A model generated the notes under the pieces. The model had not been told where the DNA came from, did no database searches, and saw only the letters and a list, made by a program, of their open reading frames with translations. Positions 1 to 49,493 of a stretch of 49,493 bases of DNA are shown here, piece by piece; positions within the stretch are counted from its first letter, which is position 1; every line of letters starts with the position of its first letter. The position numbers were made by a program, and so were the translations under genes. The stretch comes from a virus. Location of the stretch: the IMG/VR virus record IMGVR_UViG_3300035102_000435; one strand, 5' to 3'.

Positions 1-127
1 AGTCAAAAGAGAAAAGAATTTTATCAGAAATATAAAGATCAGGAAGAAAGCGAAGGAAATTCAGGAGGTGGAGTACTTTGAAAAAATCAGAAATGGTTAA
101 AATGCTTAGTTTTCTTGACAATTATTA
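1..127. repeat. Terminal direct repeat, identical to 49367..49493 (circular or circularly permuted genome; likely assembly overlap)
   Basis: Read directly: the first 127 nt of the window match the last 127 nt exactly. Confidence 0.9.
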
Positions 128-650
128 TAATGCAAAATTTGAATACCCTAAATCAGATGATGATGAAACAGCAGCTCTAACAGAGACCTGGTTTCTATTC
201 TTGGCTGAATATGATTACAATGTAGCTTCTACAGCTTTGAAAAAGTTAGTTATAGATAAGCCAACCTGGCCACCGACTCCGGGAGAATTAGTAAAACAAA
301 TTCAAAAGATGCTGACTAAAAATGATCCGGTTATGAAGATCAGTGGACCGGAAGCCTGGGAAAAAGTTAGAAATGCTATCAGTAAACACAGTTGGTTTTA
401 TCACCCCGAAAAAGTAAAAGAAGTACTACCAGAACCAGTTTTGAAAGCTGCAGAAGTGACAGGTTTAAGTTTGATAGCAAATAACCCAGATAGTTTTACA
501 ATGAACCGTTTTATTAAGACTTATGAACAGATCAAAGAACACGAAAAAGAAAGAAAGTTACTACCGGGAAGTGTCAGAAAAGATATTGAAAGAATAGAAA
601 GAGCAGAAGTAAAACAACTTGCAGAGAGGATAAGTGATAATAATGAGTAA
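78..650 (+). CDS. Hypothetical replication-module protein (possible helicase-loader-like)
   Basis: 190-aa ORF; SD-like GGAGGTGG about 6 nt upstream of the TTG start, which overlaps the stop of the upstream initiator gene. Function guessed from position only. Confidence 0.45.
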   Translation: MKKSEMVKMLSFLDNYYNAKFEYPKSDDDETAALTETWFLFLAEYDYNVASTALKKLVIDKPTWPPTPGELVKQIQKMLTKNDPVMKISGPEAWEKVRNAISKHSWFYHPEKVKEVLPEPVLKAAEVTGLSLIANNPDSFTMNRFIKTYEQIKEHEKERKLLPGSVRKDIERIERAEVKQLAERISDNNE

Positions 651-9947: not shown

Positions 9948-9959
9948 GGAGGAATTAAG

Positions 9960-15584: not shown

Positions 15585-16191
15585 TTTTAATAAAAACATT
15601 AGTTTGGTGTTATTTTGGTATGATTTTGAGCTTTTTTTGAGTGGATTTTCTATATATAAAGAATATAATGATAGTATGAAGTAATTGTGAGTTTTTCCAT
15701 TATTACTTATTTATTTCCTATTTGGTTTTTTACCGGCTTAATTCCACTATTTAGGCCGGGTTTTTTCATACTACCTCTATTATAATATGTGTGGCTCGGG
15801 CTCAATGTCCGGGCCATTACTCGTTTATAGAGCTATGAATCAGCCAGAATGCAGCACGAACTACCAGCCGCAGCTACTGGATAGCAGAGTAGAAAGGTGT
15901 CAGCTCAGCACTCCCGCTGGCTCCGCAGACCACCAGAATTCGCGGGTCCTTCTGAGAATCTAGAGCCTTGCGGTGACGCTGAATCCCAAAAACTGGCTAG
16001 ATTTCGGTGAAAAAAGTTGAATTTCATACAGTCGATAACTTTTTATATTTTTTAAAATTGAATATCAAACTTATATAATAACTGTCATGACAACGTTCGC
16101 GGCAGTTTTATTTTTACCATTTTAAAAACACTTGTTTACAGTATTTTACTGAACTTACGGTGATTTTAATTTCAGTGAAAAGGAGGGTCTT

Positions 16192-16749
16192 ATGAAATTC
16201 GAAGTTTCAGCTGAAGAGCTCGCAGAATTTATAGATATTTCCGAGCGCAGAGTTTATCAGTTGGTCGATGCAGAAATTATAGATAGAGTTACAGAAGGAA
16301 AATATGATCTTAAGGAATGCGCTAAAAAATATTATGAGTTTAAATTTGGAAGCGGTAATAGAGATTTGAATGAAGTAAAAGCTGAGCATGAAGAAATCAA
16401 AAAACGGATTAGTGAAATTAAACTTGCTAAGCAGCAAAATAAAGTTCATGAAGCTTCAGATGTAGAATTTGCAATGACCAATATATTGACTACCTTTAGA
16501 AATAGAATTTTAGCGATACCTCCAAAATTATCTCCTCAAATAACAGGAATGAAAAACACAAATAAAATTAGTGATCTAATGAACTCTGAATTAAAAGAAG
16601 CTCTTGAAGAATTGTCAGGATATGATCCATCTTTATTTGTTGATGATGAAGATCTATACGAAGGTGATGCAGTTGAAGTCGAAAACGAAAAAGTTATTCA
16701 GGAAGGTTCTCAAGACAGTAGCACCTCCACCGGATCTAAAAATAAGTGA
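16192..16749 (+). CDS. terS: Terminase small subunit
   Basis: 185-aa ORF immediately upstream of and overlapping the large terminase; N-terminal HTH-like region, acidic C-terminus; RBS AAGGAGGG upstream. Confidence 0.6.
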   Translation: MKFEVSAEELAEFIDISERRVYQLVDAEIIDRVTEGKYDLKECAKKYYEFKFGSGNRDLNEVKAEHEEIKKRISEIKLAKQQNKVHEASDVEFAMTNILTTFRNRILAIPPKLSPQITGMKNTNKISDLMNSELKEALEELSGYDPSLFVDDEDLYEGDAVEVENEKVIQEGSQDSSTSTGSKNK

Positions 16750-18529
16750 CTGGGCTGATCAATATAGAAAATTACCTCGCGAAACATCAGCCGAGCCTGG
16801 ACAATGGAGAACAAACCGAGCACCTTATCAACGAAAAATAATGGATTCTATCAATGATCCAGAAGTTGAAAAAGTTGTTGTAATGAGCAGTTCTCAGGTT
16901 GGAAAGTCTGAAATAGTTATTAATGTTATGGGCTATTATATTGATATTGATCCGTGTCCAATGTTATTAGTGCAGCCAACTGTAGATGATGCACAGGATT
17001 TTTCAAAAAGAAGGATAGCGCCTTCGATTAAAGCTACAGATTCATTAAGAGAAAAAGTTTCGGAAAGTAAAAGCAAAGATAGCAGCAATACTATTTTGAT
17101 GAAATCTTTCCCTGGTGGTTTTTTAGCTCTTGCTGGTTCTAACTCTCCTTCTGGTTTGGCAAGTAGACCAGTAAGAATTTTATTGTGCGATGAAATTGAT
17201 AGGTATCCATCTTCTGCAGGAAGTGAAGGGGATCCATTAAAAATTGCAGAAAGAAGAACAACTACTTTTTGGAATAAGAAAAAAGTTTATGTTTCCACAC
17301 CGACAATTAAAGATGCTTCCAGAATTGAAGATGAGTATAAAGCTGGAACTCAGGAAAAGTGGAAACTTAAATGTCCTCATTGTGGAGATTATCAATATAT
17401 ACATCTTCAAAATGTTAAATTTGAGTATGAGAAAGATAAAAAAGGCAATTATAAAGTCTGGGATCTAAAATATGAGTGTACTGAATGTCATAATAAATTT
17501 GATGAACACACCTGGAAGAATCAACCAGGTAAATGGATAGCAGAAAATGATGATGTTATTAAGACAAGAAGTTTTCATCTTAATGCTTTTGTAAGTCCCT
17601 GGACTCCCTGGGAAGAAATTATGGAAGAATGGCTGAGTGTGAAGAAAGATCCAGAACAGTATAAAGTATTTAAAAATACAATGCTCGGGTTACCCTGGGA
17701 GGAAAAAGGAGAAATTGAGGATGAAGAATTTCTTTTAAAACGCAGGGAAGAATATGAGGCAGATGTGCCGGATGGAGTTCTGCTGCTAACCGCTGGTGTT
17801 GATGTTCAGGATGACAGATTAGAATATGAGATAGCAGGCTGGGGAAAAGGGCAAGAGTCCTGGGGCATTGAGTACGGCATGATAATGGGCGCTCCTGATA
17901 TGCCGTCAACTTGGCAGATGCTTTCTGATAAATTAGACCAGACTTTCAGGACAGAGTCAGGTAAAGGAATGAAAGTTGCCTGCACCTGTGTTGACTCTGG
18001 AGGTCATTTCACTTCAGATGTTTATAAATTTTGCAAAAAGAACGAACATAGAAGAATATTTGCTATTAAAGGCCGGGGTGGCCCGGGTATTCCTCTGATA
18101 GATAAGATTTACCGCAGTAAAAAAGAAAATGCTGCGGTTTTTATTTTGGGTGTTGATTCTGGTAAATCAACTATCATGTCAAGACTTAAGATAAAAGAAA
18201 GAGGCGATGGATATTGTCACTTCCCTGCTAATAAAGAAAGAAATTATGATCGCAGTTATTTTCAAGGACTCATATCTGAGAAACTGGTCCGGAGAAAAAG
18301 GAGTGGCCAGTACAGAATGGTTTGGGAAAAAATCAGCCCTAATCAGAGAAATGAGCCTTTAGATTTAAGAAATTATGCTTTAGCTGCACTTAATATACTT
18401 AATCCTAGCTTTGATGCACTTGAAAAAAGGCTAAAACAAAAAGGAAATGGCAGTGTTAGTACAAGCAATTCTAAATCTAGAAGAAAAAAGAAGCGCCGCG
18501 GTGTGGTTAATAAGGGTGTTTCAGTATAA
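16622..18529 (+). CDS. terL: Terminase large subunit, lambda GpA-like (start uncertain)
   Basis: N-terminal region (PPPDLKISDWADQYRKLPRE...YQRKIMDS...SQVGKSE) aligns with lambda gpA from memory; the 5' end overlaps terS in another frame, with candidate starts at 16604, 16622, 16643 and 16667. Confidence 0.85.
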   Translation: MIHLYLLMMKIYTKVMQLKSKTKKLFRKVLKTVAPPPDLKISDWADQYRKLPRETSAEPGQWRTNRAPYQRKIMDSINDPEVEKVVVMSSSQVGKSEIVINVMGYYIDIDPCPMLLVQPTVDDAQDFSKRRIAPSIKATDSLREKVSESKSKDSSNTILMKSFPGGFLALAGSNSPSGLASRPVRILLCDEIDRYPSSAGSEGDPLKIAERRTTTFWNKKKVYVSTPTIKDASRIEDEYKAGTQEKWKLKCPHCGDYQYIHLQNVKFEYEKDKKGNYKVWDLKYECTECHNKFDEHTWKNQPGKWIAENDDVIKTRSFHLNAFVSPWTPWEEIMEEWLSVKKDPEQYKVFKNTMLGLPWEEKGEIEDEEFLLKRREEYEADVPDGVLLLTAGVDVQDDRLEYEIAGWGKGQESWGIEYGMIMGAPDMPSTWQMLSDKLDQTFRTESGKGMKVACTCVDSGGHFTSDVYKFCKKNEHRRIFAIKGRGGPGIPLIDKIYRSKKENAAVFILGVDSGKSTIMSRLKIKERGDGYCHFPANKERNYDRSYFQGLISEKLVRRKRSGQYRMVWEKISPNQRNEPLDLRNYALAALNILNPSFDALEKRLKQKGNGSVSTSNSKSRRKKKRRGVVNKGVSV

Positions 18530-18783: not shown

Positions 18784-18919
18784 GAGGTACAAAATGAGTT
18801 ACAAAAATAAAAAAAATAAGCCAAAAAAAGAAATTATCATTCCTAAGGACACCAAAATTAAATCAAAGGAAAAAAATAGACAAAATTTGATTAAAAGAAA
18901 AGTACGGTAGGTGACGAAT

Positions 18920-20599
18920 ATGAATTTAATCGACAAAGCTGTAAAATATCTTAGTCCTCAGACTGCACTAAAAAGAGAATATGCAAGAGAAAGACTTAAT
19001 GCATGGGAGAAATTTAAAAACTCTGGGTACAGCGAAAGCGGAGCCAGCCATCAGAAAAAATCAATGAAAGGTTGGAATTCATTAAGTCGCAGCCCTAACG
19101 AAGATATTAATGACAATCTCGATACATTAAGACAGCGCTCAAGATCATTATTTATGGGGTCACCTTTAGCTGCTTCTGCAATCAAAACCAACAGGACCAA
19201 TGTTGTAGGTGCCGGTTTAAAACTAAAATCAAAAGTAGATGCTGAAACTTTAGGAATAAGAGAAGAACAAGCTGATCAGTGGGAAAGAAAAGTCGAAAAA
19301 GAATTTAGTTTGTGGGCAGAATCAGTTTGGGCCGATAATTTAAGACTTAATAATTTTTATGAGCTGCAGGGTCTGGCACTAATGTCCTGGCTAATAAATG
19401 GAGATGTTTTTCCACTCATTAAAAGAGATGAAGCAAAAAGTTGGATGCCTTATACTTTAAGGCTGCACCTTGTAGAAGGTGATAGAATAGGCACTCCTAA
19501 TGTAGGAAGTAATTTTAGTTATTCAAGTTTTTATAGTGCTCAGTATAATACTTCTGGTAAAAATAGTGAAACTGGAAATCCTATCTATAATGGTGTTGAA
19601 GTTGATCAAGAAAGTGGGGCTGTGGTCGCTTATTGGGTAGCAAATAGACATCCGAAAAAGAAAATGGATGGCCACTTCACAAAATGGAAAAGAGTTAAAG
19701 CTTTTGGAGACAAAACTGGGGAACCTAATATCTTACATTTAATGGAGCCTGAAAGATGCGAACAGTACAGAGGTGTACCTTATCTTGCTCCGGTTATTGA
19801 ATCCTTAAAACAAATAACTAGATATACAAAAGCAGAGTTGACTGCAGCAGTTGTGCAGTCATTTTTTACTGCATTTATTAAACAAGATGGCCCGGCCAAT
19901 GAAATACCTTTTGGAGAAACCTTTATGGGTGAAGAACAGGTAGATGAAGAAGATCCAAATTCTTACGAAATGGGAGCCGGGACAATCAATGTCTTAGGTG
20001 AAGGTGAAAGTGTTGAATTTGGAGATCCGACCAGACCGGGAAATAATTTCGAGCCATTCATAAATGCGATAGCCAAACAAATTGGTGCAGCTTTAGAAAT
20101 ACCATATGAGTTATTAAATAAAGCGTTTCTTTCTTCATATTCAGCGAGTAGAGCTGCATTGTTAGAAGCCTGGAAAGCATTTAAAATGCGGAGAACCTGG
20201 TTTGCTAATGATTTTTGCCAGCCAGTGTATGAATTATGGTTAACAGAAGCAGTTGCCCGGGGCAGAATTAAAGCACCTGGTTACTTCAATGATCCTGCCA
20301 TTAAAAGAGCCTGGGCTTCTGCAGAATGGATAGGACCAGCTCCAGGACAGGTTGATCCAGTGAAAGAGGTCACTGCTGCAATTATGAGAATAGAAAATGG
20401 TTTATCAACTAGAGAAAGAGAAACCACCGAGCTCAATGGAAGCAATTGGGACGATAATATAAAACAGCTACTGAAGGAAAACAAAAAGATCAGAGAAGCC
20501 TATGATGGGCTTGGGGAGGATGATCAAAATGCTGTTCAAAATCTAGTTAAGACTCTATATAACAAAGAGATTGAAAAGGGGGCGACAGAAATTGACTAA
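18920..20599 (+). CDS. Portal protein (lambda gpB-like)
   Basis: About 560-aa ORF after terL and the gpW-like gene; ORF in track from GTG 18911, ATG at 18920 preceded by GGTAGGTGA. Confidence 0.8.
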   Translation: MNLIDKAVKYLSPQTALKREYARERLNAWEKFKNSGYSESGASHQKKSMKGWNSLSRSPNEDINDNLDTLRQRSRSLFMGSPLAASAIKTNRTNVVGAGLKLKSKVDAETLGIREEQADQWERKVEKEFSLWAESVWADNLRLNNFYELQGLALMSWLINGDVFPLIKRDEAKSWMPYTLRLHLVEGDRIGTPNVGSNFSYSSFYSAQYNTSGKNSETGNPIYNGVEVDQESGAVVAYWVANRHPKKKMDGHFTKWKRVKAFGDKTGEPNILHLMEPERCEQYRGVPYLAPVIESLKQITRYTKAELTAAVVQSFFTAFIKQDGPANEIPFGETFMGEEQVDEEDPNSYEMGAGTINVLGEGESVEFGDPTRPGNNFEPFINAIAKQIGAALEIPYELLNKAFLSSYSASRAALLEAWKAFKMRRTWFANDFCQPVYELWLTEAVARGRIKAPGYFNDPAIKRAWASAEWIGPAPGQVDPVKEVTAAIMRIENGLSTRERETTELNGSNWDDNIKQLLKENKKIREAYDGLGEDDQNAVQNLVKTLYNKEIEKGATEID

Positions 20600-36471: not shown

Positions 36472-36495
36472 CTCTTCATGCAAAAATCTTTCAGA

Positions 36496-36888: not shown

Positions 36889-37827
36889 TTGCCTGGCGAA
36901 TATCATCAGTTCTATGTCTATGAACCTAAGCAGCGGTTAGTTATGGCACTTCCTTTTGAGGATAGAGTGGTCCAGTGGGCTGTATATAGAAATTTAAATC
37001 CTATATTTGATAAAACTTTTTATGAACATAGCTGCGCCTGCCGGATTGGTAAAGGTACTCATTATGCAGCGGACCAGCTGCAGCACTGGATGAGAAAACT
37101 AGATAGAAGCCCAGGGGAAACTTATTATCTCAAAGCTGATGTTGCAAAATATTTTTACAGGATAGATCACAGAACTCTTTTCGAAATCATCAAAAGAAAG
37201 ATTAGCTGCAGAGATACTTTAGAGCTGATCTGGAAGATCATTAAAAAAGATGATGGTGAATTCGGAATACATCTCGGTGATCATTACTTTGAAAGAGATA
37301 AAATCAAAGGAATTGGAATCCCGATTGGTAACTTAACCAGTCAATTATTTGCTAATGTTTATCTCGACTTCATGGATAAATTTATAAAACATAATTTACG
37401 GGCTAAACACTACGTCAGATATATGGACGATTTTGTTATCCTGGGAAAATCAAAGAAAGAACTACATACAATCAGACAGGAGATAGAAATATTTCTTGCT
37501 GATTATTTAAAACTTGAACTTAACAACAAAACTACTGTTGATAATATCTGGAATGGAATAGATTTCTGCGGATATGTCACTTATCCACCATATAGAAAAT
37601 TGAGAAAAAGTACAAAAAGGAAACTCAAAAGACGGCTTAAATATCTTCAGAAAAAGTATTATAAAGAGGAGGTGGAGATCAATGAAATAAATGCCAGCGT
37701 TCAAAGTTATCTTGGAATATTAAAACATTGTGACAGCCATAATCTGACAATGTCGGTTATTGGCCAGTTAGAGGATGAAATACTTAATCAACTAGATTTA
37801 GAGGACGTTCGAGAACAAAGAAGTTGA
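36889..37827 (+). CDS. DGR reverse transcriptase (N-terminus likely extends upstream)
   Basis: YMDD catalytic motif (YVRYMDDFVILG) and the DGR-type IGNLTSQLFANVY motif; coordinates are from the first canonical start, but conserved N-terminal sequence continues in frame back to about 36700. Confidence 0.9.
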   Translation: MPGEYHQFYVYEPKQRLVMALPFEDRVVQWAVYRNLNPIFDKTFYEHSCACRIGKGTHYAADQLQHWMRKLDRSPGETYYLKADVAKYFYRIDHRTLFEIIKRKISCRDTLELIWKIIKKDDGEFGIHLGDHYFERDKIKGIGIPIGNLTSQLFANVYLDFMDKFIKHNLRAKHYVRYMDDFVILGKSKKELHTIRQEIEIFLADYLKLELNNKTTVDNIWNGIDFCGYVTYPPYRKLRKSTKRKLKRRLKYLQKKYYKEEVEINEINASVQSYLGILKHCDSHNLTMSVIGQLEDEILNQLDLEDVREQRS

Positions 37828-37890
37828 TGCGATATACAGATAAGCAAATACTTTTGCCTTGTAGCAGGGCTTGGTTTGAGGTGAAAACAC

Positions 37891-38352
37891 GTGAATGCAA
37901 AATGGAGACCATTTTTAGACGAAATAATTTATTACTGGAACAAATTTTTTGAGCATACAGTTATAAAAAGTTTTCTTGCGGTGGGGGGCACATTGCTGAC
38001 TATGATGTTTGGAGATATGAATGCAGCTATGCAGGGCTTTTTGATTTTGTTGGCAGCAGATTATATTACAGGAATTATAAAAGCAAGCAAAAAAGGTCAG
38101 CTATCAAGCTGGATGTCCCGTAAGGGGTGGGGGAAAATAGCGACTTATGCAATTGTAATATCGCTTGGCCACCTGGTAACTCAAATAGGGATGAAAGGAA
38201 TGAGAGATTTTGTTCTTCTCTGGGCCGGAGCAACTGAAGCTATATCTATTTTAGAAAACTGTGACGAGCTCGGTGTCGCTATTCCCGAGTTTATGCGAGA
38301 AAAACTTTTACGAACAAAAGAAAATAAATTTGGAGAGGAGATTAACCGATGA
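37891..38352 (+). CDS. Putative holin
   Basis: 153-aa membrane protein directly upstream of the amidase gene, with stop-start overlap. Confidence 0.55.
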   Translation: MNAKWRPFLDEIIYYWNKFFEHTVIKSFLAVGGTLLTMMFGDMNAAMQGFLILLAADYITGIIKASKKGQLSSWMSRKGWGKIATYAIVISLGHLVTQIGMKGMRDFVLLWAGATEAISILENCDELGVAIPEFMREKLLRTKENKFGEEINR

Positions 38353-38927
38353 AAATAACTGATGATGCAGGACATGGAGGTTCTGACCCTGGAGCTGTCG
38401 ACCCAAAAGAAGTTGAAAAAGAAGATGGTATTTATGAAGATGAAATTTACTCTGAAGAGAGCGATATAAATTTGAAAGCAGCTAAGATTTTTAAAGAAAT
38501 AGCTGAATTTAAAGGTCATGAAATTATTATGACCAGAAAAGAAGATAAGTATATCCCTTTGTATCAAAGAAGTGATTTAGCAAATAAAGAAAAAACAGAT
38601 ATATTTGTTTCTTTTCATTGCAATTCTGTGGGCTTTCCTACTGCTAAAGGAATAGAAACTCTATATTATCCAACTTCTAAAAACGGGAAAAAACTTGCTG
38701 AATGTATTCAAGATAATTTAATGAAAGTTGCGGATACACCAGATAGAGGAATAAAGTCCAGAGATAATTTACACGTCTTAGAAGAAACAGATATGCCGGC
38801 TGTTTTAATAGAACTTGGCTTTATTTCTAACCCTGCAGAGGAAAAACTCTTAAATGAAAAAGAATATTTATATCTTCTTTGTGAAGCAGTGTTAAATGGA
38901 GTTGATGATTATGCCAGAAACAGTTAA
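38349..38927 (+). CDS. N-acetylmuramoyl-L-alanine amidase (endolysin)
   Basis: 192 aa; motifs DAGHGG..DPGA, FVSFHCNS, AVLIELGFISN characteristic of Amidase_3-type cell-wall amidases. Confidence 0.8.
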   Translation: MKITDDAGHGGSDPGAVDPKEVEKEDGIYEDEIYSEESDINLKAAKIFKEIAEFKGHEIIMTRKEDKYIPLYQRSDLANKEKTDIFVSFHCNSVGFPTAKGIETLYYPTSKNGKKLAECIQDNLMKVADTPDRGIKSRDNLHVLEETDMPAVLIELGFISNPAEEKLLNEKEYLYLLCEAVLNGVDDYARNS

Positions 38928-39144
38928 TGAAGTCAATCTTAAAGAGGACTCAAACGATAACGGAATTCCCGACTGGGTAGAAGCTACAGCGACTTATCTT
39001 ATAGCTGCTATTTGTGTAGCTCTTGCTGTTTCTGGGTATGTTAAAAATAATTTAGACCCTGCATCTATAAGGTGGTTGATGAGTTTTGCTGCAGCTCTTT
39101 CCGGAGGTAGAGATTTGATTAAAGGTTTTGTAGGGGGACGATAA
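38896..39144 (+). CDS. Small membrane protein in the lysis cassette (start uncertain)
   Basis: 82-aa ORF with a central hydrophobic helix. Confidence 0.35.
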   Translation: MELMIMPETVNEVNLKEDSNDNGIPDWVEATATYLIAAICVALAVSGYVKNNLDPASIRWLMSFAAALSGGRDLIKGFVGGR

Positions 39145-39145
39145 A

Positions 39146-39556
39146 ATGCTAAAAACTAAGCATAAAATTATATTGATTGTTATTGCTGTAATTATAGCCC
39201 TGGCACTGCTGTTTTTTGTTGGCAAGGAAATAGCTGCAGGTTTTGCAGCTGTATTAGGTATATTTGGTTTTAGTGGTGGCAAAGCTCTTAAGAAAAAATC
39301 TGATGAAGTTAAGAAAAAAGCTGATCAGGAAAAAGAAGTGGCTAAAAAAGTAGAAAATAATATTGATGATCGGAATAAAAAAGATAAGCAGCTGCAGCGG
39401 GATGATCAGGAGAGAGCTGAAATTGCTGAAGAATTAGAAAATGAATCTGATGATAGAGAAAAAGAAATGCAAAAAATAAGAGATGATCAGGCAGCAAGAA
39501 AAGAAAAAGGTGAAAAATTAAATGCTCGACTAGAAGAATTAAAAGGGGATGATTAA
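39146..39556 (+). CDS. Membrane-anchored coiled-coil protein (spanin-like architecture)
   Basis: 136 aa; N-terminal transmembrane helix followed by a charged, coiled-coil-like region. Confidence 0.4.
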   Translation: MLKTKHKIILIVIAVIIALALLFFVGKEIAAGFAAVLGIFGFSGGKALKKKSDEVKKKADQEKEVAKKVENNIDDRNKKDKQLQRDDQERAEIAEELENESDDREKEMQKIRDDQAARKEKGEKLNARLEELKGDD

Positions 39557-40028
39557 AATTAAAAAACTGTTAATCATTATTATAGCCTTAGTTTTGATTT
39601 TCTTCCCGGGACAAATTAATGCTCAGGATCAATCTGATGTAAGTTACCAAAAACTATTGGAGCGCAACCAGGAGTTAACTGAAATTGCAGAAGAATATAA
39701 AAAAATGTGGGAAGAAGCTGAAAAACAATTAAATATAGCTGATGAATTATATTCTAAAGAAAAATCTGAAAAAGAAAAGTTTAAAATGCTATATGAAGAG
39801 GAAAGAGAAGATAAAAAAGAATATAGACAGTTATATCAAAGCAGTAATGAAGATCTAAAAAAAGTTTTAAAGTCTAATGAAAGATTACAATCTTATATTG
39901 ACAGTTTAAATGAAACTATTGACAAACATTTAGGAAAAAGTAATATATCTGTATCAACCGGAATCGGTATAAATGCAAAAAATCCAGATGAAAGTCTATT
40001 CATTGTAGGCTTTGAATTTGGGATTTAA
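39549..40028 (+). CDS. Secreted coiled-coil protein (spanin-like architecture)
   Basis: 159 aa; N-terminal signal-peptide-like segment ending ...AQ, coiled-coil body, C-terminal aromatic beta-strand FIVGFEFGI. Confidence 0.4.
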   Translation: MIKIKKLLIIIIALVLIFFPGQINAQDQSDVSYQKLLERNQELTEIAEEYKKMWEEAEKQLNIADELYSKEKSEKEKFKMLYEEEREDKKEYRQLYQSSNEDLKKVLKSNERLQSYIDSLNETIDKHLGKSNISVSTGIGINAKNPDESLFIVGFEFGI

Positions 40029-40057
40029 TATAAATAATTTTTGTAGCGGAGGTAAAC

Positions 40058-40288
40058 ATGAGATACCTTATGTTTTTATTGTTAATAATTTTAGATTTAA
40101 TTTTTAGCGCAGGAACTTCATATTTTATTTTAACTAGAAAAATGAAAAGAATTGATAAAAATTCAAGTTGCGGAACCGGGAGCATCGGAGAAGCAATTAT
40201 TGCTTGGGTAGTTGTTGTGGTTATTTTTATAATATTACTTGCTGTATATGGTTCATTATTGTATTGGATCATGTTTCTTTTACTTTAA
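40058..40288 (+). CDS. Hypothetical small membrane protein
   Basis: 76-aa ORF with two hydrophobic helices; RBS GGAGG. Confidence 0.35.
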   Translation: MRYLMFLLLIILDLIFSAGTSYFILTRKMKRIDKNSSCGTGSIGEAIIAWVVVVVIFIILLAVYGSLLYWIMFLLL

Positions 40289-40298
40289 AGGAGGTCTT

Positions 40299-40511
40299 AT
40301 GGCTATTCTAAAAGTTTTACTTATTATAATAATTTCAATTATAATTTCCGGATTGCAAAGTTATTCAGTTTATAAATGGCTATTAAGTGGAAATCACAAA
40401 GAACCATTTAATCCATTTGTGCCCCAGGAAAACTCTTTAATAGGCGCTGCAGTTGCCGGAATTATCTTTGCATCTGTAAATACAACTATATTACATTGGA
40501 TTATATTCTAA
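40299..40511 (+). CDS. Hypothetical small membrane protein
   Basis: ORF in track from 40239; ATG at 40299 preceded by AAGGAGG; about 70 aa, hydrophobic. Confidence 0.35.
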   Translation: MAILKVLLIIIISIIISGLQSYSVYKWLLSGNHKEPFNPFVPQENSLIGAAVAGIIFASVNTTILHWIIF

Positions 40512-40518
40512 TTATTAA

Positions 40519-40552
40519 CCTCTGGGGCTTTAAGCCCTGGGGGTATTTTTTT
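40519..40552 (+). terminator. Rho-independent terminator candidate
   Basis: GC-rich stem (CCTCTGGGGC / GCCCTGGGGG, with G-U pairs) and loop TTTAA, followed by TATTTTTTTA. Confidence 0.5.
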
Positions 40553-40591
40553 ATGCAAAAAAACTTTTTTAAAAAATATTGATAAAAACCC

Positions 40592-40620
40592 TTGACAAAA
40601 CACATGCATGCATGTATAAT
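40592..40620 (+). promoter_or_regulatory. Consensus sigma-70-type promoter
   Basis: TTGACA (40592..40597), 17-nt spacer containing CATGCATGCATG, TATAAT (40615..40620); sits about 30 nt upstream of the 40653 ORF. Confidence 0.6.
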
Positions 40621-40652
40621 AAAGATACAAGATAAGGAAAGGGGTAAAACAA

Positions 40653-41342
40653 ATGGCTAGACAAATTTGTGTTTACGTTAGTGATTGGCAGTTTGAGAAA
40701 TTAAAAAAAGAAGATAACAAGTCAGAGGTTGCAAGAAAGGCATTTGATTTATATTATAAAAAGGAGGGAAAAGAAATGAAAATTATTGAAATTGTAGAAT
40801 TAACAAAAAGTGGTGTAAAAGTTAGCGATCAGGACAATCCAATGGCGGTTAGATATTTTAATGACAATGGAAATTTACCAGATGGAAATTTTGACGAAAA
40901 CCAAATAGCTGGCGAATGGGTGCATCTTGAAGGACAACACGCAAATTTTGAAATTTATGCTTATAGATCTATAGACAATAGTACACTCGTTCCAGCTGAT
41001 ATTTTCAAAGAAAAATTAATTAGTCAAATTGCAGGCGCCAGAATTACATTAACTAAAGCTGAATTAGAAGAAAAAGCAGAAATTAATGAAGTTTGGGAAG
41101 AAATAGCGACCGAAAGCATCCAGGCCACAAAAGAAAAAACTTTTTCAAAAGATGGTTGGAGAGATATCGAATTAACTGATGATTATCTATATCAGCTAGA
41201 ATTTGATGAGGGTGGCATAAGATATTATGAAGGTACAGAAGAAAGATATTTAGAGGAACCGGTCGGTGAAGAAGGATGGGATGAACCACAATGGTCTCCT
41301 AAAGAAATTAAAATGCTAATAGATGGGCTTGAAAATGAATAA
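40653..41342 (+). CDS. Hypothetical protein with N-terminal ribbon-helix-helix-like segment fused to an acidic domain
   Basis: 229-aa ORF; the N-terminal ~40 aa look CopG/Arc-like; an in-frame ATG at about 40775 with its own AAGGAGGG could give a separate product. Confidence 0.45.
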   Translation: MARQICVYVSDWQFEKLKKEDNKSEVARKAFDLYYKKEGKEMKIIEIVELTKSGVKVSDQDNPMAVRYFNDNGNLPDGNFDENQIAGEWVHLEGQHANFEIYAYRSIDNSTLVPADIFKEKLISQIAGARITLTKAELEEKAEINEVWEEIATESIQATKEKTFSKDGWRDIELTDDYLYQLEFDEGGIRYYEGTEERYLEEPVGEEGWDEPQWSPKEIKMLIDGLENE

Positions 41343-41916
41343 ATTAATTATACCTGGTCGTATTCTAGGAATATTCTGGACTACGGCCAGCTGGTCCTCT
41401 ACAGAAAAATCTATTCAAATAACTAATAAGGACTATGAAATTGTTAAAAAAGTGCAAAGTTATCTTTCTGAAATTAATTTTGAATATACTATATACCAAG
41501 GACCAACAGAAAATAAGCGCCCAGGTTATGAATATGATTATTACAGAATGAAAATATACAATAGTGATTTCATTGACCTGTTAAGAAATGAGTACAACTG
41601 GCGAGGGAGGAGAGAAAAAAAGAGATATTACCCTAATTTCGATTCTTATCAGCAGGTAGTTGAATTTTTGAGATATTATATTAATTCTCAGCACACTTCT
41701 GCTGAAATATCAGTTAATTGGGGCGACGGAAAGCATAAGCGATTAAAGGTATTTGTTAACAAAAATTTTGCAGATATTCTAAATGAAAGAATAAGCGATA
41801 TTGTAGGGGTTAATGAAAACAAAATATACAAACATTCTCAATCAGATGTATTAATGTATCTTTTTTATCAAAGCAAAAAAGATGTAGAATTAATATTAGA
41901 TTTTATAAATAAATAG
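41323..41916 (+). CDS. Hypothetical protein
   Basis: 197-aa ORF, Tyr/Arg-rich. Confidence 0.45.
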   Translation: MGLKMNKLIIPGRILGIFWTTASWSSTEKSIQITNKDYEIVKKVQSYLSEINFEYTIYQGPTENKRPGYEYDYYRMKIYNSDFIDLLRNEYNWRGRREKKRYYPNFDSYQQVVEFLRYYINSQHTSAEISVNWGDGKHKRLKVFVNKNFADILNERISDIVGVNENKIYKHSQSDVLMYLFYQSKKDVELILDFINK

Positions 41917-41978
41917 AGGTTAATTTTAATTTATATGCAACTATATAAATAATAACAATAATAGAGGAGTGTTTAATT

Positions 41979-42626
41979 ATGATCAAGAAAATAATTTTAG
42001 TTTTTATTGGTATAATTATAATTGGCTTCGCAACTGGAATATTAACGGTTGATTCAGGAGAAAACGAAAAGGATAAAATACAACCGGCCACTGCAGAAAG
42101 CAACCAGAGTTCTCAAGAATTAAACTATACTATAATTGATGATGAACTAAATTTATATGATGATGTTTTTAGATACAATTATCATGTAGTTGTAGAAGGA
42201 GAACCAGGAGTGAAAGAATTAAAAAATATTGCTCAAAAAGTAACTGAAAAAGCTAAAAATGATAAAGAATTTAATGCTTTAAGAATTTCTTTTTATGATC
42301 GAAAAGAGTACGTTGGCCATGGAATAACTTTGGGAAATGCTACATTTGCTTTAAATGGAGACTGGGGAGAAGCTCAAAATGTTGTTAGCGGAGATTATGA
42401 TGTAATGGAATTTAAATATAATTTATTAGAAAAAAATTGGAATAAAAAACTTACTGATCAAGAGGTTGAAATTTGGTCTTACTATAAAAAATATAGTGAA
42501 TCAACTAATCAAAGTCAAGATGAAATTTTCGAAACAGCTGCTAAAAAGTTCAGTATTACTGCTGCAGAAGTAAAAGATATTGTTTTTAAAAAAGTATTTT
42601 GGAATGGAAATAATAAAACAAAATAG
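41979..42626 (+). CDS. Hypothetical membrane-anchored protein
   Basis: 215 aa with an N-terminal transmembrane/signal anchor; last gene before the convergent integrase. Confidence 0.45.
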   Translation: MIKKIILVFIGIIIIGFATGILTVDSGENEKDKIQPATAESNQSSQELNYTIIDDELNLYDDVFRYNYHVVVEGEPGVKELKNIAQKVTEKAKNDKEFNALRISFYDRKEYVGHGITLGNATFALNGDWGEAQNVVSGDYDVMEFKYNLLEKNWNKKLTDQEVEIWSYYKKYSESTNQSQDEIFETAAKKFSITAAEVKDIVFKKVFWNGNNKTK

Positions 42627-42647
42627 GTTCTTAGATTCAGGCCATAA

Positions 42648-44189
42648 CTATGGTCTGTAATCTTCAATATTAATTGTGGATTCAAAACGGTACGCCCCAC
42701 CTCCACCATCAACATCCACAATATAATCTATGGTTATATTGTTTTCATATACGGTGACTTTTTTAACGAAAGTTTTGACGATCCTTCGCTGATCTTCAAG
42801 GCTTTCGTTTTTAATATTTCTATACTTCATTAATTCTTGAACAATTCTTTCTTTTGATGGAGAATTATTCTCGGCTTGAAACCTTGCTTCCTCAAGGTAC
42901 ATTTCATAATCTGCTTTTTCATTTTCAAGAGAGTTTAATTTTTCATTCATTGAAGGCTGATATAAACCTTCTGCTACTGCTTCAGTAATGTTATCAATTT
43001 TTTTCTGAACTTCTTTTAAATGTTTTTCAAATCTTTTAATGTCAGAATTTATTTCTTTATTTTCAGTTTTAGCAAATTTGTATACCTTGGCAGCTATATT
43101 TTTGATTGCAGCAGGCGAAAATAATTCTTCTATCATATTATCTAAAACTGCACCTTCTACAAAATCTTTACTTATTGAAGGCATGTCACAATCTCTTTTT
43201 CTCTTTCTGGTAGAACATTCATAAGAAGTGTAGACAGTTTTATTTTTTCCAGCAATTCTTCTATTTCCAACCATTGCTCCCTCGCATTTTCCACACTTAA
43301 TTAAACCGGCAAGAATATAGATTTCTTTAGCTTTATTATTAACAGACTTTTTATTACCTTCCATTCTTTTTTTCACCTTCCTCCAGGTATGATCATCAAT
43401 TATTCTTGGCATTCCACCTTCAATTCTAATAATTTTCTTTTTATCTTTTGACTTATGGTGATTTCTCTTTCCAGCCTTTTTACTTACAGATCTGTTAAAA
43501 ATATAAACGCCCCGATACTTTTCATTAATCAAAATATCATGTAAACTAGGCCTGCTAAAATTACCACCAGTCTGAGTCTTGAAACCCCTCTTTTTAAGCT
43601 CGTCAATTATTTCTGAATAACCATGGCCATCGGCATACATTTCAAAAATTAACTTCACACTTTTAGCCTGCTCTTCATTGATAATGTAAGTCTTATCTTC
43701 TGCAACATCGAACCCAAGGGGTGCTAAACCTCCATTATGTTTGCAATTTAAAGCGTTCTCTTTCATTCCTTTTTTAACTTCTCTGCGTAAATTAGCAGAA
43801 TAATATTCATTATACCCTTCCAATACAGATTCTAATATTATAGATTCAGGACTACCATCCAAATTTTCTAATGCAGAAATAACTTCGACACCATTCTCTC
43901 TTAATTTTCTTTTATATACAGCGGAATCATATCTATTTCTAGCAAAACGATCTAGTTTATGAACAATCACAAAATCAAACAAATCTTTTTTACTGTCGCT
44001 GACCATGTCTAAAAAAGCTGGGCGATCAGAAGTTGTAGCTGATTTCGCTTTATCAGTATAAATTTTATTTATTTTTATATTATTTTTGGCTGCGTACTCC
44101 TTAATTTCTCTAACCTGAGCATCTATTGATTCTTCTCTTTGGTTACTGGAGCTAAAACGTGCATAAATTGCAGCTGTTGGCTTACTCAT
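42648..44189 (-). CDS. Large serine recombinase (integrase)
   Basis: 513 aa; N-terminal resolvase-type catalytic region (AAIYARFSSSNQ with the catalytic Ser), recombinase domain, Cys-rich zinc ribbon and coiled-coil C-terminus; RBS AGGAGG. Confidence 0.9.
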   Translation of the reverse strand: MSKPTAAIYARFSSSNQREESIDAQVREIKEYAAKNNIKINKIYTDKAKSATTSDRPAFLDMVSDSKKDLFDFVIVHKLDRFARNRYDSAVYKRKLRENGVEVISALENLDGSPESIILESVLEGYNEYYSANLRREVKKGMKENALNCKHNGGLAPLGFDVAEDKTYIINEEQAKSVKLIFEMYADGHGYSEIIDELKKRGFKTQTGGNFSRPSLHDILINEKYRGVYIFNRSVSKKAGKRNHHKSKDKKKIIRIEGGMPRIIDDHTWRKVKKRMEGNKKSVNNKAKEIYILAGLIKCGKCEGAMVGNRRIAGKNKTVYTSYECSTRKRKRDCDMPSISKDFVEGAVLDNMIEELFSPAAIKNIAAKVYKFAKTENKEINSDIKRFEKHLKEVQKKIDNITEAVAEGLYQPSMNEKLNSLENEKADYEMYLEEARFQAENNSPSKERIVQELMKYRNIKNESLEDQRRIVKTFVKKVTVYENNITIDYIVDVDGGGGAYRFESTINIEDYRP

Positions 44190-44205
44190 GTTTATCCTCC
44201 TAAGT

Positions 44206-44877
44206 TTATAACTTATGCATAACTTCTATAGCTTTACCAATAATTCTAGCCTGATCATTTTTTATAATGATATTTTCATAATTAGGATTCTCAGGTTGCA
44301 AAACCCATGAACCGTTAGTTTTTATTACTCTTTTTAAAGTTGCTTCATCAGAATTAACCATTACTACTGCTATCTCATTATTTTCAACTGTACTCTGACG
44401 TCTGATCAAAACAAGATCCCCCTCGTTAATACCTGCATTTATCATACTGTCACCTTTGACTTTAAGAAAGAAATATTGACCATTTGAAACCCTATCAGCT
44501 GGTACTTTTTTGTAGAATAAAATATTTTGTTCAGCCAAAACTGGCTGCCCTGCAGAAATTGTTCCGATAACCGGAATAGATTCGACTTCTTTTTTTATGA
44601 TGTCATCATAATTATATTTAGATTTTGTTTCTTTTAACTCATTAACTTTTCCAGATATGTAACCCGCTTTAATCATCAGAATGCCATCCGCAATATTTAA
44701 AGCTTGCTCTAATTTTTTGATAATTTGTGGAGATGGAGGGTTTTTAGTTTTGCCATTTAATATTCTAGAAATGTAAGAGTGATCTATATCAGCCTGTCTT
44801 CCCAACTCTCTGATAGAACTTATTGCCGAATCATCAATTTCTTTTTGAAGAGTTTCTCTAAAATCTTTTATACTCAT
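44206..44877 (-). CDS. CI-like repressor (HTH plus S24 LexA-type peptidase domain)
   Basis: 223 aa; N-terminal HTH and C-terminal S24 motifs (GDSM...KRV); divergent from a Cro-like gene. Confidence 0.85.
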   Translation of the reverse strand: MSIKDFRETLQKEIDDSAISSIRELGRQADIDHSYISRILNGKTKNPPSPQIIKKLEQALNIADGILMIKAGYISGKVNELKETKSKYNYDDIIKKEVESIPVIGTISAGQPVLAEQNILFYKKVPADRVSNGQYFFLKVKGDSMINAGINEGDLVLIRRQSTVENNEIAVVMVNSDEATLKRVIKTNGSWVLQPENPNYENIIIKNDQARIIGKAIEVMHKL

Positions 44878-44902
44878 TTTTTTATTCCTTTCTTTAATAT
44901 GA

Positions 44903-44972
44903 TATGTTAATTATAATATATATGTTGACTATTTGCAACTTAAAATATAAATAAATTAAATTTTATGTTGAC
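44903..44972. promoter_or_regulatory. Candidate operator repeats (TATGTTGAC-like) in the genetic switch region
   Basis: TATGTTGAC at 44921..44929 and 44964..44972, plus a partial copy TATGTTA at 44903; each overlaps a TTGAC -35-like hexamer. Confidence 0.4.
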
Positions 44973-44996
44973 AAAAAACCACAAGTGATATATAAT
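44968..44996 (+). promoter_or_regulatory. Rightward early promoter (PR-like)
   Basis: TTGACA (44968..44973), 17-nt spacer, TATAAT (44991..44996), about 30 nt upstream of the Cro-like gene. Confidence 0.55.
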
Positions 44997-45029
44997 CTAT
45001 TTAAGATAAATGATTAAAGGAGGTGTGAA

Positions 45030-45272
45030 GTGGTGAAAGAAATTGTTTTAAATCGTGAACTTGTTGAAAAATATATGGAAGAAACAGATCGCTCGATACC
45101 AGAACTTGCTGATGAGATGGGAATTGATAGGACCTACCTTTATAAGATATTAAGGAAAGGCAGAAAACCAGGCAGAAAATTCATTGAAGGAGCCGTAAGA
45201 GTTCTTCCTTATAGTTATGAAAATATTTTTTTAACTAAAGTGGTGCATAAAAACAACAAAAGTGGTGATTAA
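45030..45272 (+). CDS. Cro-like HTH regulator
   Basis: 80-aa ORF divergent from the repressor; HTH-like SIPELADEMGIDRTYLYKILR; RBS AAGGAGG. Confidence 0.5.
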   Translation: MVKEIVLNRELVEKYMEETDRSIPELADEMGIDRTYLYKILRKGRKPGRKFIEGAVRVLPYSYENIFLTKVVHKNNKSGD

Positions 45273-45276
45273 ATTA

Positions 45277-45408
45277 ATGAAAGTTTTTCAAGACAATAAA
45301 AAAATAATTCTAACTAATGACGAAAATGAAATTCTTACTAAATTAAGCACTGATGAAGCAAAACAATTGGTTGAAAAATTAGTTACTGCTATAGAGGAGG
45401 AAAAGTAA
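45277..45408 (+). CDS. Hypothetical small protein
   Basis: 43-aa ORF translated by hand. Confidence 0.3.
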   Translation: MKVFQDNKKIILTNDENEILTKLSTDEAKQLVEKLVTAIEEEK

Positions 45409-45569
45409 TGTCTCTGGCAATAAAAAGAGTAACTGTTGATAGAAAAACTGGCACTGTTACAAATAAAGAAATTATAGATAATAATCCAGATATAGAGGAG
45501 AGTGAAGTTTATTCTCCTTTTTCAAAAATGGTATATGACAAAATTATGAGTCAGGAGGTAAACAATTAA
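45408..45569 (+). CDS. Hypothetical small protein
   Basis: 53-aa ORF translated by hand; stop-start overlaps on both sides. Confidence 0.3.
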   Translation: MSLAIKRVTVDRKTGTVTNKEIIDNNPDIEESEVYSPFSKMVYDKIMSQEVNN

Positions 45570-46612
45570 TGGATCAATTGACAGAGAGTAAATTTAATTA
45601 TAGCCAACTCCAACCAGAGATGGCTAATTTTTTGAGAGAAAAAGAAACAAATATGAAAGAAATTGTAGGCAGTGCTTACACCAGAATCGGAAAAGAATTA
45701 AAAGATGCTCAAGATAAACTTTCTCAAAATGGATATGGCTGTTTTCAAGAATGGTATGAAAGCTTAGGTTTCAAAAAAGATAAAGTTTATAGAATGATAA
45801 AAAGATATAATTTGATTCTCGCAAATAGCGAGAAACAAGATTTGATAGAAGATTTGCCTTTAAGTTTGAGTTATGAAATAGCAAAAAATTCAGCTGATCC
45901 GGAACTTAAGCAGCAGGTCCTGGACGGAGACATAACTTCCCATAAGGAATTTAAAAAACTTAAAAAAGAGAAAGAAAAACTTGAAGAGGAAAAAGAGAGA
46001 CTAAAAGAGAACAACCAGTTTTTAGAAGAAATCAGAGATGGTCTTATTAAAGAAAGGGACCAGGAACGCCAGAAAAAAATTAATGTTTACAAACAAATTA
46101 AGGAGTTGAAAGAAAAAGAACCTGAAACTATAGAAAAAGAAGTTATTCCTGATGATTATAAAAAAATGAAAGAACAGAATCGAAAAATGAAACAGCAGCT
46201 GCAGCAGAAGCAAAATGAATTGGACAGATTATCTAATGATATTAAGGAATTAAGTAAAGAAAAAGAGATTATCGAAGAAAAAGCAAATCTCAATGAGAAA
46301 GAAGCGGAAGAATATAAGCAGTTGAAAAATAAAATTAAGAATCTCAAAGAACAGAAAAATAGTATTCACAGAAAATTCGAAGCTGTTGGTAGTGTAGCTG
46401 ATTTTGTAACCGAAATAGAAAGTTTTTTGCAGAACAAATTAGCTCCAGTTAAATATTCCAGAGCATTAATTGAAGCAAGCGACGATGAAATTGTAGTCAG
46501 AAATGTAAAAGAAATAGTGGGAAAAGTCAGAGAGTGGTGTAATGAAGTTGAGGATCTTCTGCCGGAGAAGAAAAATTATATTGATGCTGAGGTGATTGAT
46601 AGTGAGCAATGA
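45569..46612 (+). CDS. Hypothetical early protein with long coiled coil
   Basis: 347-aa ORF; Lys/Glu-rich coiled-coil centre. Confidence 0.45.
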   Translation: MDQLTESKFNYSQLQPEMANFLREKETNMKEIVGSAYTRIGKELKDAQDKLSQNGYGCFQEWYESLGFKKDKVYRMIKRYNLILANSEKQDLIEDLPLSLSYEIAKNSADPELKQQVLDGDITSHKEFKKLKKEKEKLEEEKERLKENNQFLEEIRDGLIKERDQERQKKINVYKQIKELKEKEPETIEKEVIPDDYKKMKEQNRKMKQQLQQKQNELDRLSNDIKELSKEKEIIEEKANLNEKEAEEYKQLKNKIKNLKEQKNSIHRKFEAVGSVADFVTEIESFLQNKLAPVKYSRALIEASDDEIVVRNVKEIVGKVREWCNEVEDLLPEKKNYIDAEVIDSEQ

Positions 46613-48505: not shown

Positions 48506-49447
48506 GTGGCTGGATACTTCAAACTCTATCGAGATATATTTGAAAGCAGCATATGGATGCAGCCAGTTGATTTAAGATTATTTATATACCTAATTGGACA
48601 GGCCCGCTATAAAGAAGAACCAAACACCAAATATAAAGCTTATGGAATCATTATTAAACGCGGGCAGTTCCTCAGGTCCTATAGAAAAATAAGAGATGAT
48701 CTTGAGTATTTTGAGAACAATGCTCTTAAGCATTATAGCCTTTCAGTAATCAAACGTTCGGTGGATAGATTGGTAGAACAAGAAAGAATAGAAATTGAAC
48801 AAACTAAGCTTGGAACACTCTTTACAGTCGTTAATTACCGGCAGTATCAGGATTATCAAGAAGATAACAAAGAGCTTGGAACGGACTTGGAACAGGGTTG
48901 GAACGGAGTTGGAACACCTGCGGAACAATACAGTAAGAAGGGGAAAGAAGGGGAAAGAAGGGAGAAAGAAAAACGTTCGGACTCTGAAAGTCCGAATTCT
49001 CTCTCTGAAAAAGAAGAATATGAACCTAAATATGGTGAAGAAAGTATTCCCTATAAAGCAGCTAAATATTTAAGGGGAAGAATTTTAGAAAATAATAAAA
49101 GGCAGCCGGTTCCTGATCCAAACCCTGAAGACTTAGAAGATTGGGCTATTGAATTAGAAAGATTAAATAGATTAGGCCCTAAAGGAAAAAGAAACGCTGG
49201 ATATAGCTGGGAAGAGATAAGAAATATAATGGACTGGTGCCAGGAAGATGAGTTCTGGAGTGGTAACATTTGTTCAGCTCCAACCTTCAGGGACCAAATA
49301 ACTAAATTAGAAAATCAAATGAGAAGAGATTTGAATAATAATAAGAAAAATAGTTCTAAAAAGAAAAGTCAAAAGAGAAAAGAATTTTATCAGAAATATA
49401 AAGATCAGGAAGAAAGCGAAGGAAATTCAGGAGGTGGAGTACTTTGA
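48506..49447 (+). CDS. Putative replication initiator/replisome organiser
   Basis: 313 aa; N-terminal DNA-binding-like domain, low-complexity linker whose DNA carries iteron-like repeats, C-terminal domain with YSWEEIRNIMDWCQ-type sequence. A two-domain initiator with the origin inside the gene is the lambda O / SPP1 G38P pattern. Confidence 0.55.
   Translation: MAGYFKLYRDIFESSIWMQPVDLRLFIYLIGQARYKEEPNTKYKAYGIIIKRGQFLRSYRKIRDDLEYFENNALKHYSLSVIKRSVDRLVEQERIEIEQTKLGTLFTVVNYRQYQDYQEDNKELGTDLEQGWNGVGTPAEQYSKKGKEGERREKEKRSDSESPNSLSEKEEYEPKYGEESIPYKAAKYLRGRILENNKRQPVPDPNPEDLEDWAIELERLNRLGPKGKRNAGYSWEEIRNIMDWCQEDEFWSGNICSAPTFRDQITKLENQMRRDLNNNKKNSSKKKSQKRKEFYQKYKDQEESEGNSGGGVL
48876..48926 (+). repeat. 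Iteron array (candidate replication origin)
   Basis: TTGGAAC at 48876, 48887, 48898 and 48909 (11-bp spacing) plus GGAAC at 48922; followed by GAAGGGGAAA tandem repeats (48938..48968) and an 8-bp-stem inverted repeat (48976..48996). Confidence 0.55.
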
Positions 49448-49493
49448 AAAAATCAGAAATGGTTAAAATGCTTAGTTTTCTTGACAATTATTA
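49367..49493. repeat. Terminal direct repeat, identical to 1..127
   Basis: Exact 127-nt identity with the window start. Confidence 0.9.

What the first reader, a model, noticed from the sequence alone, without database searches (positions are those of the whole stretch)
49367..49493. Exact 127-bp terminal overlap: complete circular or circularly permuted genome
The window's first and last 127 nt are identical, and the replication initiator ORF runs across the junction (stop at 49445..49447, equivalent to 79..81). A 127-nt overlap is the size assemblers leave on circular contigs, so the unique genome is about 49366 bp and the window is a full phage genome, not a fragment. It does not mark the physical DNA ends.
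Basis: partly seen in the sequence, partly recalled or inferred. Interest (0 to 1): 0.45.

Follow-up and report, generated by a model that had tools for sequence, protein, structure and literature searches.

The report
Assembler overlap closing a complete phage genome
The identical 127 bases at both ends of this sequence are the usual leftover of a genome assembler closing a circle, so the window is one complete 49,366-bp temperate phage genome; this is ordinary and useful only for bookkeeping.

Summary
Bases 1-127 and 49367-49493 are identical, and 127 is the longest prefix that equals a suffix. The unique length is 49,366 bp.

- A different 40.8-kb contig from another assembly matches the predicted circular closure at 6000/6000 bases. 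Two further contigs cross it without gaps.
- A 49,652-nt contig of the same phage is opened about 13.6 kb away, and its spacing across the junction is exactly as predicted.
- 127 is the largest k-mer of the JGI metaSPAdes workflow, and 127-bp overlaps are a documented SPAdes artefact.
- The overlap lies inside coding sequence: the 3' end of a DnaD-like replication gene and the start of a G39P-like helicase-loader gene.

The overlap is not the virion end. The phage has a lambda gpA-type large terminase and a lambda-type portal. A cos motif, unique in the window, sits at 15966-16000. It matches the deposited or experimentally determined ends of related phages and the starts of two related metagenome contigs. 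I predict the left end at base 15973.

No read data could be examined. The finding is already known in kind and of low interest. In passing, the phage carries an evidently active diversity-generating retroelement.

The parts
1..127 (.). Left copy of the terminal overlap
   Evidence: Identical to 49367-49493. It is coding sequence, not an intergenic end region.
49367..49493 (.). Right copy of the terminal overlap; this is the redundant copy to trim, leaving a unique genome of 1-49366
   Evidence: Independent contigs carry this segment once, flanked by window 49366 on one side and window 128 on the other.
48506..49447 (+). DnaD-like replisome organiser / helicase loader gene that runs into the overlap
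   Evidence: ORF list and translation. phrog_2514 'DnaD-like helicase loader', E 7.9e-44. A weak DNA match to the replication protein of Bacillus phage Pony. No Pfam hit.
78..650 (+). G39P-like helicase loader gene; its first 50 nt lie in the overlap and are repeated at 49444-49493
   Evidence: PF11417 Inhibitor_G39P, E 3.3e-14. phrog_2289 helicase loader. In other contigs the gene caller starts it at the ATG at 93 (185 aa).
15966..16000 (+). Predicted cos site: CCTTGCG | GTGACGCTGAAT | CCCAAAAACTGGCTAG. The predicted nick is after 15972 and the predicted 5' overhang is about 15973-15984.
   Evidence: It aligns with the joined record ends of Shimadzu, nd4, Lagaffe, Lily, Pioen and Lelie. The motif is unique in the window, with 0.00 matches expected by chance. 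The same motif lies 716-826 nt upstream of TerL in many relatives. IMG/VR contigs L069 and L070 begin exactly at the homologous cut.
16192..16749 (+). Terminase small subunit
   Evidence: phrog_57 terminase small subunit, E 3.8e-33.
16841..18529 (+). Terminase large subunit of the lambda gpA type (start as called in other contigs; the maximal ORF starts at 16604)
   Evidence: PF05876 GpA_ATPase E 3.6e-84 and PF20454 GpA_nuclease E 1.2e-89. phrog_15. 45-52% identity to TerL of Shimadzu, Lagaffe, Lelie and Lily.
18911..20599 (+). Portal protein, lambda family
   Evidence: PF05136 Phage_portal_2, E 2.1e-101.
42648..44189 (-). Large serine recombinase (integrase); it shows the phage is temperate
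   Evidence: Resolvase, Recombinase and Zn_ribbon_recom domains. Seven contigs read through both of its flanks into phage genes, with no host DNA.
44206..44877 (-). CI/LexA-like repressor (HTH plus S24 peptidase)
   Evidence: PF00717 E 2.1e-31 and PF01381.

Best explanation
The 127-nt terminal identity is the overlap that a de Bruijn-graph assembler running at k=127 leaves when a contig path closes on itself. It has no biological function. Removing one copy gives a complete circular map of 49,366 bp for a temperate, contractile-tailed phage, and the contig was opened at an arbitrary point inside the replication module. The circle assembles because the sequenced DNA included molecules that are continuous across every point of the map: circular or concatemeric replicating DNA, or annealed cohesive ends. 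In virions, the DNA is most likely a unit-length linear molecule cut by the lambda gpA-type terminase at a cos site about 220 nt upstream of the small-terminase gene. I predict the left end at base 15973, with a 5' overhang of about 10-12 nt.

Shown: the exact overlap, continuity across the junction in independent contigs, the terminase and portal families, and conservation of the cos motif.

Inferred: that the assembler was metaSPAdes or another k=127 assembler, and that virion ends lie at 15973.
For: - The overlap is exactly 127 nt.
- Contig Ga0376502_000235 (40,830 nt) equals the closure at 6000/6000 and contains the 167-nt junction-spanning string.
- L002 and L003 cross the junction at 365/367 without gaps.
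- Contig Ga0484705_000110 (49,652 nt) starts at window 35752. Its spacing across the junction is 9222 nt, exactly as predicted. Its length equals 49,366 + a 3-nt indel + 283 nt.
- k=127 is the largest k in the JGI workflow, and the 127-bp SPAdes overlap is a published artefact.
- The overlap sits in two overlapping genes.
- The terminase is gpA-type and the portal is lambda-family.
- The cos motif is unique in the window. It is homologous to the ends of Lily (5' cos, 12-nt overhang; PMC6070908), Lelie (5' cos by PhageTerm; PMC11792537) and Shimadzu, whose record carries the same 11 nt at both ends.
- Related contigs L069 and L070 begin exactly at the predicted cut.
- The gene set is complete: replication, packaging, head, tail, baseplate, lysis and lysogeny modules (gene tables).
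Against: - No reads or assembly metadata were available, so the k value actually used, coverage across the repeat, and junction-spanning reads are untested.
- The window's own source contig was not identified.
- One relative with the same motif at its record start (Pioen, TerL 45% identical) was called 'headful' by PhageTerm. A gpA-type terminase therefore does not guarantee cos packaging.
- Contigs of this phage itself mostly read through the cos site (L008-L010, L014, L015). Only one short contig (L013) ends nearby, at 15977.
Confidence: 0.9

Rival explanations
1. The 127 nt is a genuine short direct terminal repeat of the virion DNA (T7-like or Halcyone-like DTR packaging), so the window shows the real linear molecule with its true ends.
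For: Short DTRs of 100-400 bp exist; for example, 377-378 bp in the Paenibacillus phage Halcyone cluster. An exact repeat at both contig ends is what a DTR would look like.
Against: The terminase is lambda gpA-type, not a DTR type. The repeat boundaries fall inside two genes of the replication module. Other contigs run straight through both boundaries, and another full-length contig is opened 13.6 kb away. The length equals an assembler k. A conserved cos site exists elsewhere.
Confidence: 0.01
2. The overlap is an assembly artefact, but the virions are packaged by a headful mechanism starting from a pac site. Virion DNA is then terminally redundant and partly circularly permuted rather than unit-length with cohesive ends.
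For: PhageTerm classed Pioen as headful. Pioen is a relative with a gpA-like TerL (45% identity) and the same motif at its record start. Circular assembly is what permuted genomes give.
Against: Closer or equally close relatives were determined as 5' cos: Lily with a 12-nt overhang and Lelie. The Shimadzu and nd4 records carry 11- and 9-nt identical ends, typical of cos deposits. Lambda gpA and the lambda-family portal are the canonical cos machinery (established knowledge). Related contigs start exactly at the motif.
Confidence: 0.07
3. The circle was closed falsely. The 127 nt is a real dispersed repeat, or the contig is only part of a larger element or an integrated prophage, so the genome is not complete.
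For: De Bruijn assemblers can close on a repeat of k nt or longer. The phage is temperate (integrase and repressor). Relatives occur integrated next to host genes (L084 and L085).
Against: The 127-nt segment occurs once, with the same two flanks, in three independent contigs. A second contig's length matches one full turn of the circle. All phage modules are present. No host genes occur anywhere in the window or beside the integrase in seven contigs.
Confidence: 0.01

Closest known systems
SPAdes/metaSPAdes circular-contig k-mer overlap (used as the 'DTR' completeness signal by viral-genome quality tools)
   Same: It is an exact repeat of the contig start at the contig end, its length equals the largest k (127), and its position is arbitrary. 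Published cases were trimmed in the same way (PMC12007190, PMC7372960).
   Different: Nothing differs that I could detect. The assembler used for this window is not documented here.
Lambda-type 5'-cos packaging as in Paenibacillus phage Lily, Faecalibacterium phages Lelie and Lagaffe, and Roseburia phage Shimadzu
   Same: It has a gpA-type TerL (45-52% identity), a small terminase directly upstream and a lambda-family portal. It also has a conserved YTGCG | N10-12 | CCCRAAA..CTAG site upstream of the small-terminase gene.
   Different: The ends of this phage have not been determined. The overhang sequence (GTGACGCTGAAT) differs from each relative. The non-coding gap before the small-terminase gene is longer (608 nt), with a GC-rich stretch upstream of the site.
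Short direct terminal repeats of T7-like or Halcyone-cluster phages
   Same: Only the appearance: an identical sequence at both ends of a linear record.
   Different: The terminase family differs, the repeat lies inside genes, and the boundaries are not shared by other assemblies.

Membership tests
Assembler k-mer overlap on a circular contig | The start and end of the contig are exactly identical, with no mismatch | tested here: met
   127/127 identical, and identity stops immediately outside.
Assembler k-mer overlap on a circular contig | The overlap length equals a k value used by common assemblers | tested here: met
   127 is the largest k of the JGI metaSPAdes workflow, and it is the overlap reported for SPAdes phage assemblies. 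The k actually used for this contig is unknown.
Assembler k-mer overlap on a circular contig | The junction is continuous single-copy sequence in independent data | tested here: met
   L001 matches 6000/6000. L002 and L003 match 365/367 without gaps. The spacing in a second full-length contig is exact.
Assembler k-mer overlap on a circular contig | Reads span the junction and coverage is not doubled in the overlap | not testable with these tools
   No read data are available.
Lambda-type cos packaging | Large terminase with a gpA ATPase and a gpA nuclease domain | tested here: met
   PF05876 E 3.6e-84 and PF20454 E 1.2e-89.
Lambda-type cos packaging | A cos site next to the terminase genes, homologous to determined ends of relatives | tested here: met
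   Window 15966-16000 aligns with the ends of Lily, Lelie, Shimadzu, nd4, Lagaffe and Pioen, and the motif is unique in the window.
Lambda-type cos packaging | Virion DNA has complementary single-stranded ends | not testable with these tools
   This needs virion DNA or virus-particle reads. One relative, Pioen, was called headful.
True short DTR packaging | A DTR-type terminase, and repeat boundaries shared by independent assemblies | tested here: not met
   The terminase is gpA-type. Other contigs read through both boundaries, and another is opened at 35752.
True short DTR packaging | About 2-fold read coverage over the repeat | not testable with these tools
   No reads are available.

The most novel reading that the evidence does not exclude
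This gpA-type terminase recognises the conserved cos-like site but packages by headful, as PhageTerm suggested for phage Pioen. Virions would then be terminally redundant and partly permuted. That would mean the lambda-type terminase clade in Bacillota phages switches between cos and pac modes on the same recognition site.
Probability: 0.07. Interest if true: 0.3.

Novelty: already known. Interest (0 to 1): 0.08.

Why it matters
The value is practical. It certifies the window as a complete 49,366-bp genome, shows that 127 nt must be trimmed before annotation or deposition, and warns against reading the contig ends as virion ends. The by-product, a predicted cos cut at base 15973 supported by a motif conserved across many related phages, gives a sensible base 1 for re-orienting the genome. 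It is also a cheap experimental target. None of this changes what is known about phage biology.

Tried and rejected
- An exact search of IMG/VR for the 61-mer across the left overlap boundary found nothing.
- An exact scan of metagenome contigs for a 167-nt junction-spanning string found nothing, although L001 contains it. That collection evidently lacks these contigs, so I read nothing into the result.
- Exact-protein look-ups of the DnaD-like and G39P-like products found nothing. For the G39P-like gene this is because other gene calls start at the ATG at 93. The integrase look-up worked instead.
- Two look-ups meant to retrieve the far end of the 49,652-nt contig did not return it. Its 283-nt terminal re-read of the DGR region is therefore inferred from arithmetic only.
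- A nucleotide search of phage records with the junction region gave only a 139-nt weak hit to Bacillus phage Pony.
- I tested whether the GC-rich stretch 15775-15975 upstream of cos is a structured RNA. There was no Rfam match at gathering score or at E<=1, and the folding z-score was -0.74. I rejected that idea.
- The window has no tRNAs.
- A literature search for the NCBI assembly that holds a 92%-identical tail/DGR module (LSBN01) found nothing relevant, so the host remains unidentified. The closest genomic TerL is 75% identical, in a Thermosediminibacterales MAG.

Full report
**Observation.** The window is 49,493 nt. Its first and last 127 nt are identical, and 127 is the longest prefix that equals a suffix; the only other such length is the trivial 1 (sequences read). 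The whole-window repeat scan lists this pair at 100% identity with a spacing of 49,366. The only other long repeat is a 119-nt pair at 35833/36359. The ORF at 48506-49447 enters the overlap and stops at 49445-49447, which equals 79-81. The finding is accurate as written.

**What lies at the junction.** The ORF is a DnaD-like helicase loader / replisome organiser (phrog_2514, E 7.9e-44; no Pfam hit). The next gene (78-650) belongs to the G39P helicase-loader family (PF11417, E 3.3e-14). Its TTG start overlaps the TGA stop of the ORF before it. The 127 nt therefore consist of 81 nt of one gene's 3' end and 50 nt of the next gene's 5' end, with the two sharing 4 nt, in the middle of the replication module. 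This is an arbitrary place, not an end-like one.

**Is the closure real?**
- A look-up of the exact integrase protein returned contigs from other assemblies.
- I built the predicted closure, the last 3 kb of the unique sequence followed by the first 3 kb, and compared it with them. Contig Ga0376502_000235 (JGI 3300035540, 40,830 nt) matches at 6000/6000 with no gaps. It also contains a 167-nt string spanning both overlap boundaries.
- Over a 367-nt probe (120 + 127 + 120), L001 is 367/367. L002 (JGI 3300027365) and L003 (ENA ERZ27245760, named k141_, apparently from a different assembler) are each 365/367 without gaps.
- A fourth contig, Ga0484705_000110 (JGI 3300043029, 49,652 nt), is the same phage opened elsewhere. 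Its bases 1-10588 map to window 35752-46336, and its bases 19810-40367 map to window 6192-26749.
- The distance between those two blocks is 9222 nt in that contig, and (49366-46336)+6192 = 9222 on the closed circle. The 127 nt is therefore present once there.
- Its length also equals 49,366 + a 3-nt indel + 283 nt. That fits one full turn plus a re-read of 35752-36034. I could not fetch its far end to confirm this.

**Why 127.** The JGI metagenome workflow assembles with metaSPAdes at k 33,55,77,99,127 (bioRxiv 10.1101/2020.09.30.320929). Most matching contigs come from JGI samples. Two phage papers describe a 127-bp repeat at the ends of circular SPAdes contigs as a k-mer artefact that they removed (PMC12007190, PMC7372960). 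The assembler used for this particular window is not known to me.

**Completeness.** The window carries replication genes, SSB, dUTPase, an HNH nuclease and a late regulator. It also carries both terminase subunits, portal, protease, decoration and major capsid proteins, and tail tube, tape measure and a P2-like baseplate. Tail fibres, holin, amidase, a serine integrase and a CI-like repressor complete the set (Pfam; gene tables). No host genes appear in the window or beside the integrase in seven contigs.

**Where the physical ends probably are.** The large terminase has the lambda gpA ATPase and nuclease domains (E 3.6e-84 and 1.2e-89), and the portal is lambda-family. Its closest phage relatives by TerL (45-52% identity) include Roseburia phage Shimadzu, Faecalibacterium phages Lagaffe and Lelie, and Paenibacillus phage Lily. 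In many of these records TerL starts about 830 nt from base 1.

Joining the record ends of six of these phages gives a shared architecture: YTGCG | 10-12 nt | CCCRAAA..CTAG. The window has CCTTGCG|GTGACGCTGAAT|CCCAAAAACTGGCTAG at 15966-16000, in the 608-nt gap before the small-terminase gene. The supporting points are:
- The Shimadzu record repeats 11 nt at both ends, and nd4 repeats 9 nt.
- Lily is reported to have 5' cohesive ends with 12-nt overhangs (PMC6070908).
- Lelie and Pioen were rotated by PhageTerm to start at the determined site. Lelie was called 5' cos and Pioen headful (PMC11792537).
- The pattern GCGGKG-N7-9-CCCRAAA occurs once in the window, against 0.00 expected by chance.
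- The same motif sits 716-826 nt upstream of TerL in many related IMG/VR and genome loci.
- Two IMG/VR contigs (L069, L070) begin exactly at the homologous cut, while their relatives L066 and L068 read through it.
- One short contig of this phage itself starts at 15977 (L013). This is anecdotal.

I therefore predict a virion left end at 15973, about 16 kb from the window ends. This is comparative inference, not a measurement.

**Rivals.**
- A true 127-bp DTR is contradicted by the terminase type, by the position inside genes, by contigs that run through both boundaries, and by the match to k.
- False closure on a repeat is contradicted by the single-copy context in three contigs and by the second full-length contig.
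- Headful packaging from the same site remains possible at a low level because of the Pioen call. It would not change the reading of the overlap.

**Dead ends.**
- Exact scans of IMG/VR and of metagenome contigs for junction strings found nothing.
- Two protein look-ups failed.
- Rfam searches and folding of the GC-rich stretch upstream of cos gave nothing.
- The host was not identified.

**Verdict.** This is a routine assembly signature of a complete genome. It is already known in kind and of low interest.

Noticed in passing
window 34919-37827 (target gene 34919-35956, VR 35833-35951, bAvd 36040-36336, TR 36359-36477, RT 36889-37827): The window carries a complete diversity-generating retroelement that targets the C-terminus of an mtd-like tail-fibre protein. 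All 11 TR/VR differences inside the repeat fall at TR adenines. Contigs from other samples that are otherwise about 100% identical carry different VRs, varying almost entirely at those adenine-templated positions, so the element appears active in nature.
   Followed up: partly
window 35752-35886; loci L025, L028, L031, L088-L090: Many contigs of this phage and its relatives break inside or just before the DGR variable region. L028 ends at 35837, L031 ends at 35886, and the 49,652-nt contig starts at 35752. In several other contigs the mtd gene is truncated. VR heterogeneity seems to fragment assemblies here.
   Followed up: partly
window 15925-16000; L044-L046, L060-L063, L066, L068-L070, L072-L074, L076, L077, L080: A cos architecture (GGTCCTTCTGAG or AAGGTACTGT block, then YTGCG, 10-12 nt, CCCRAAA..CTAG) is conserved upstream of the terminase genes. 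It is found across Bacillota phages whose gpA-type TerL is only 50-75% identical to this one. Some metagenome contigs end exactly at the cut.
   Followed up: partly
L017, L082, L083, L086 (non-integrated) and L084, L085 (integrated): Relatives with tail and DGR modules about 92-93% identical to this phage have swapped the lysogeny module: a tyrosine integrase, a 320-aa protein and a different repressor replace the serine integrase and CI. In L084 and L085 this relative is integrated next to host genes (a methyl-accepting chemotaxis protein, an antiporter subunit and a cold-shock protein).
   Followed up: no
window 15780-15972: A stretch of about 190 nt with 45-65% GC lies in a 34% GC genome, is non-coding, and sits directly upstream of the predicted cos cut. 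There was no Rfam match and no unusual folding energy (z -0.74). It may hold terminase or accessory binding sites.
   Followed up: partly
window 1-1725 versus L002 and L003: Contigs L002 and L003 are 99.5% identical to the window up to the end of the unique sequence (49366). They are only about 94.6-94.9% identical over the first 0.8-1.7 kb after it, and their DnaD-like gene is 296 aa rather than 313 aa. A mosaic boundary therefore lies in or near the replication genes.
   Followed up: no
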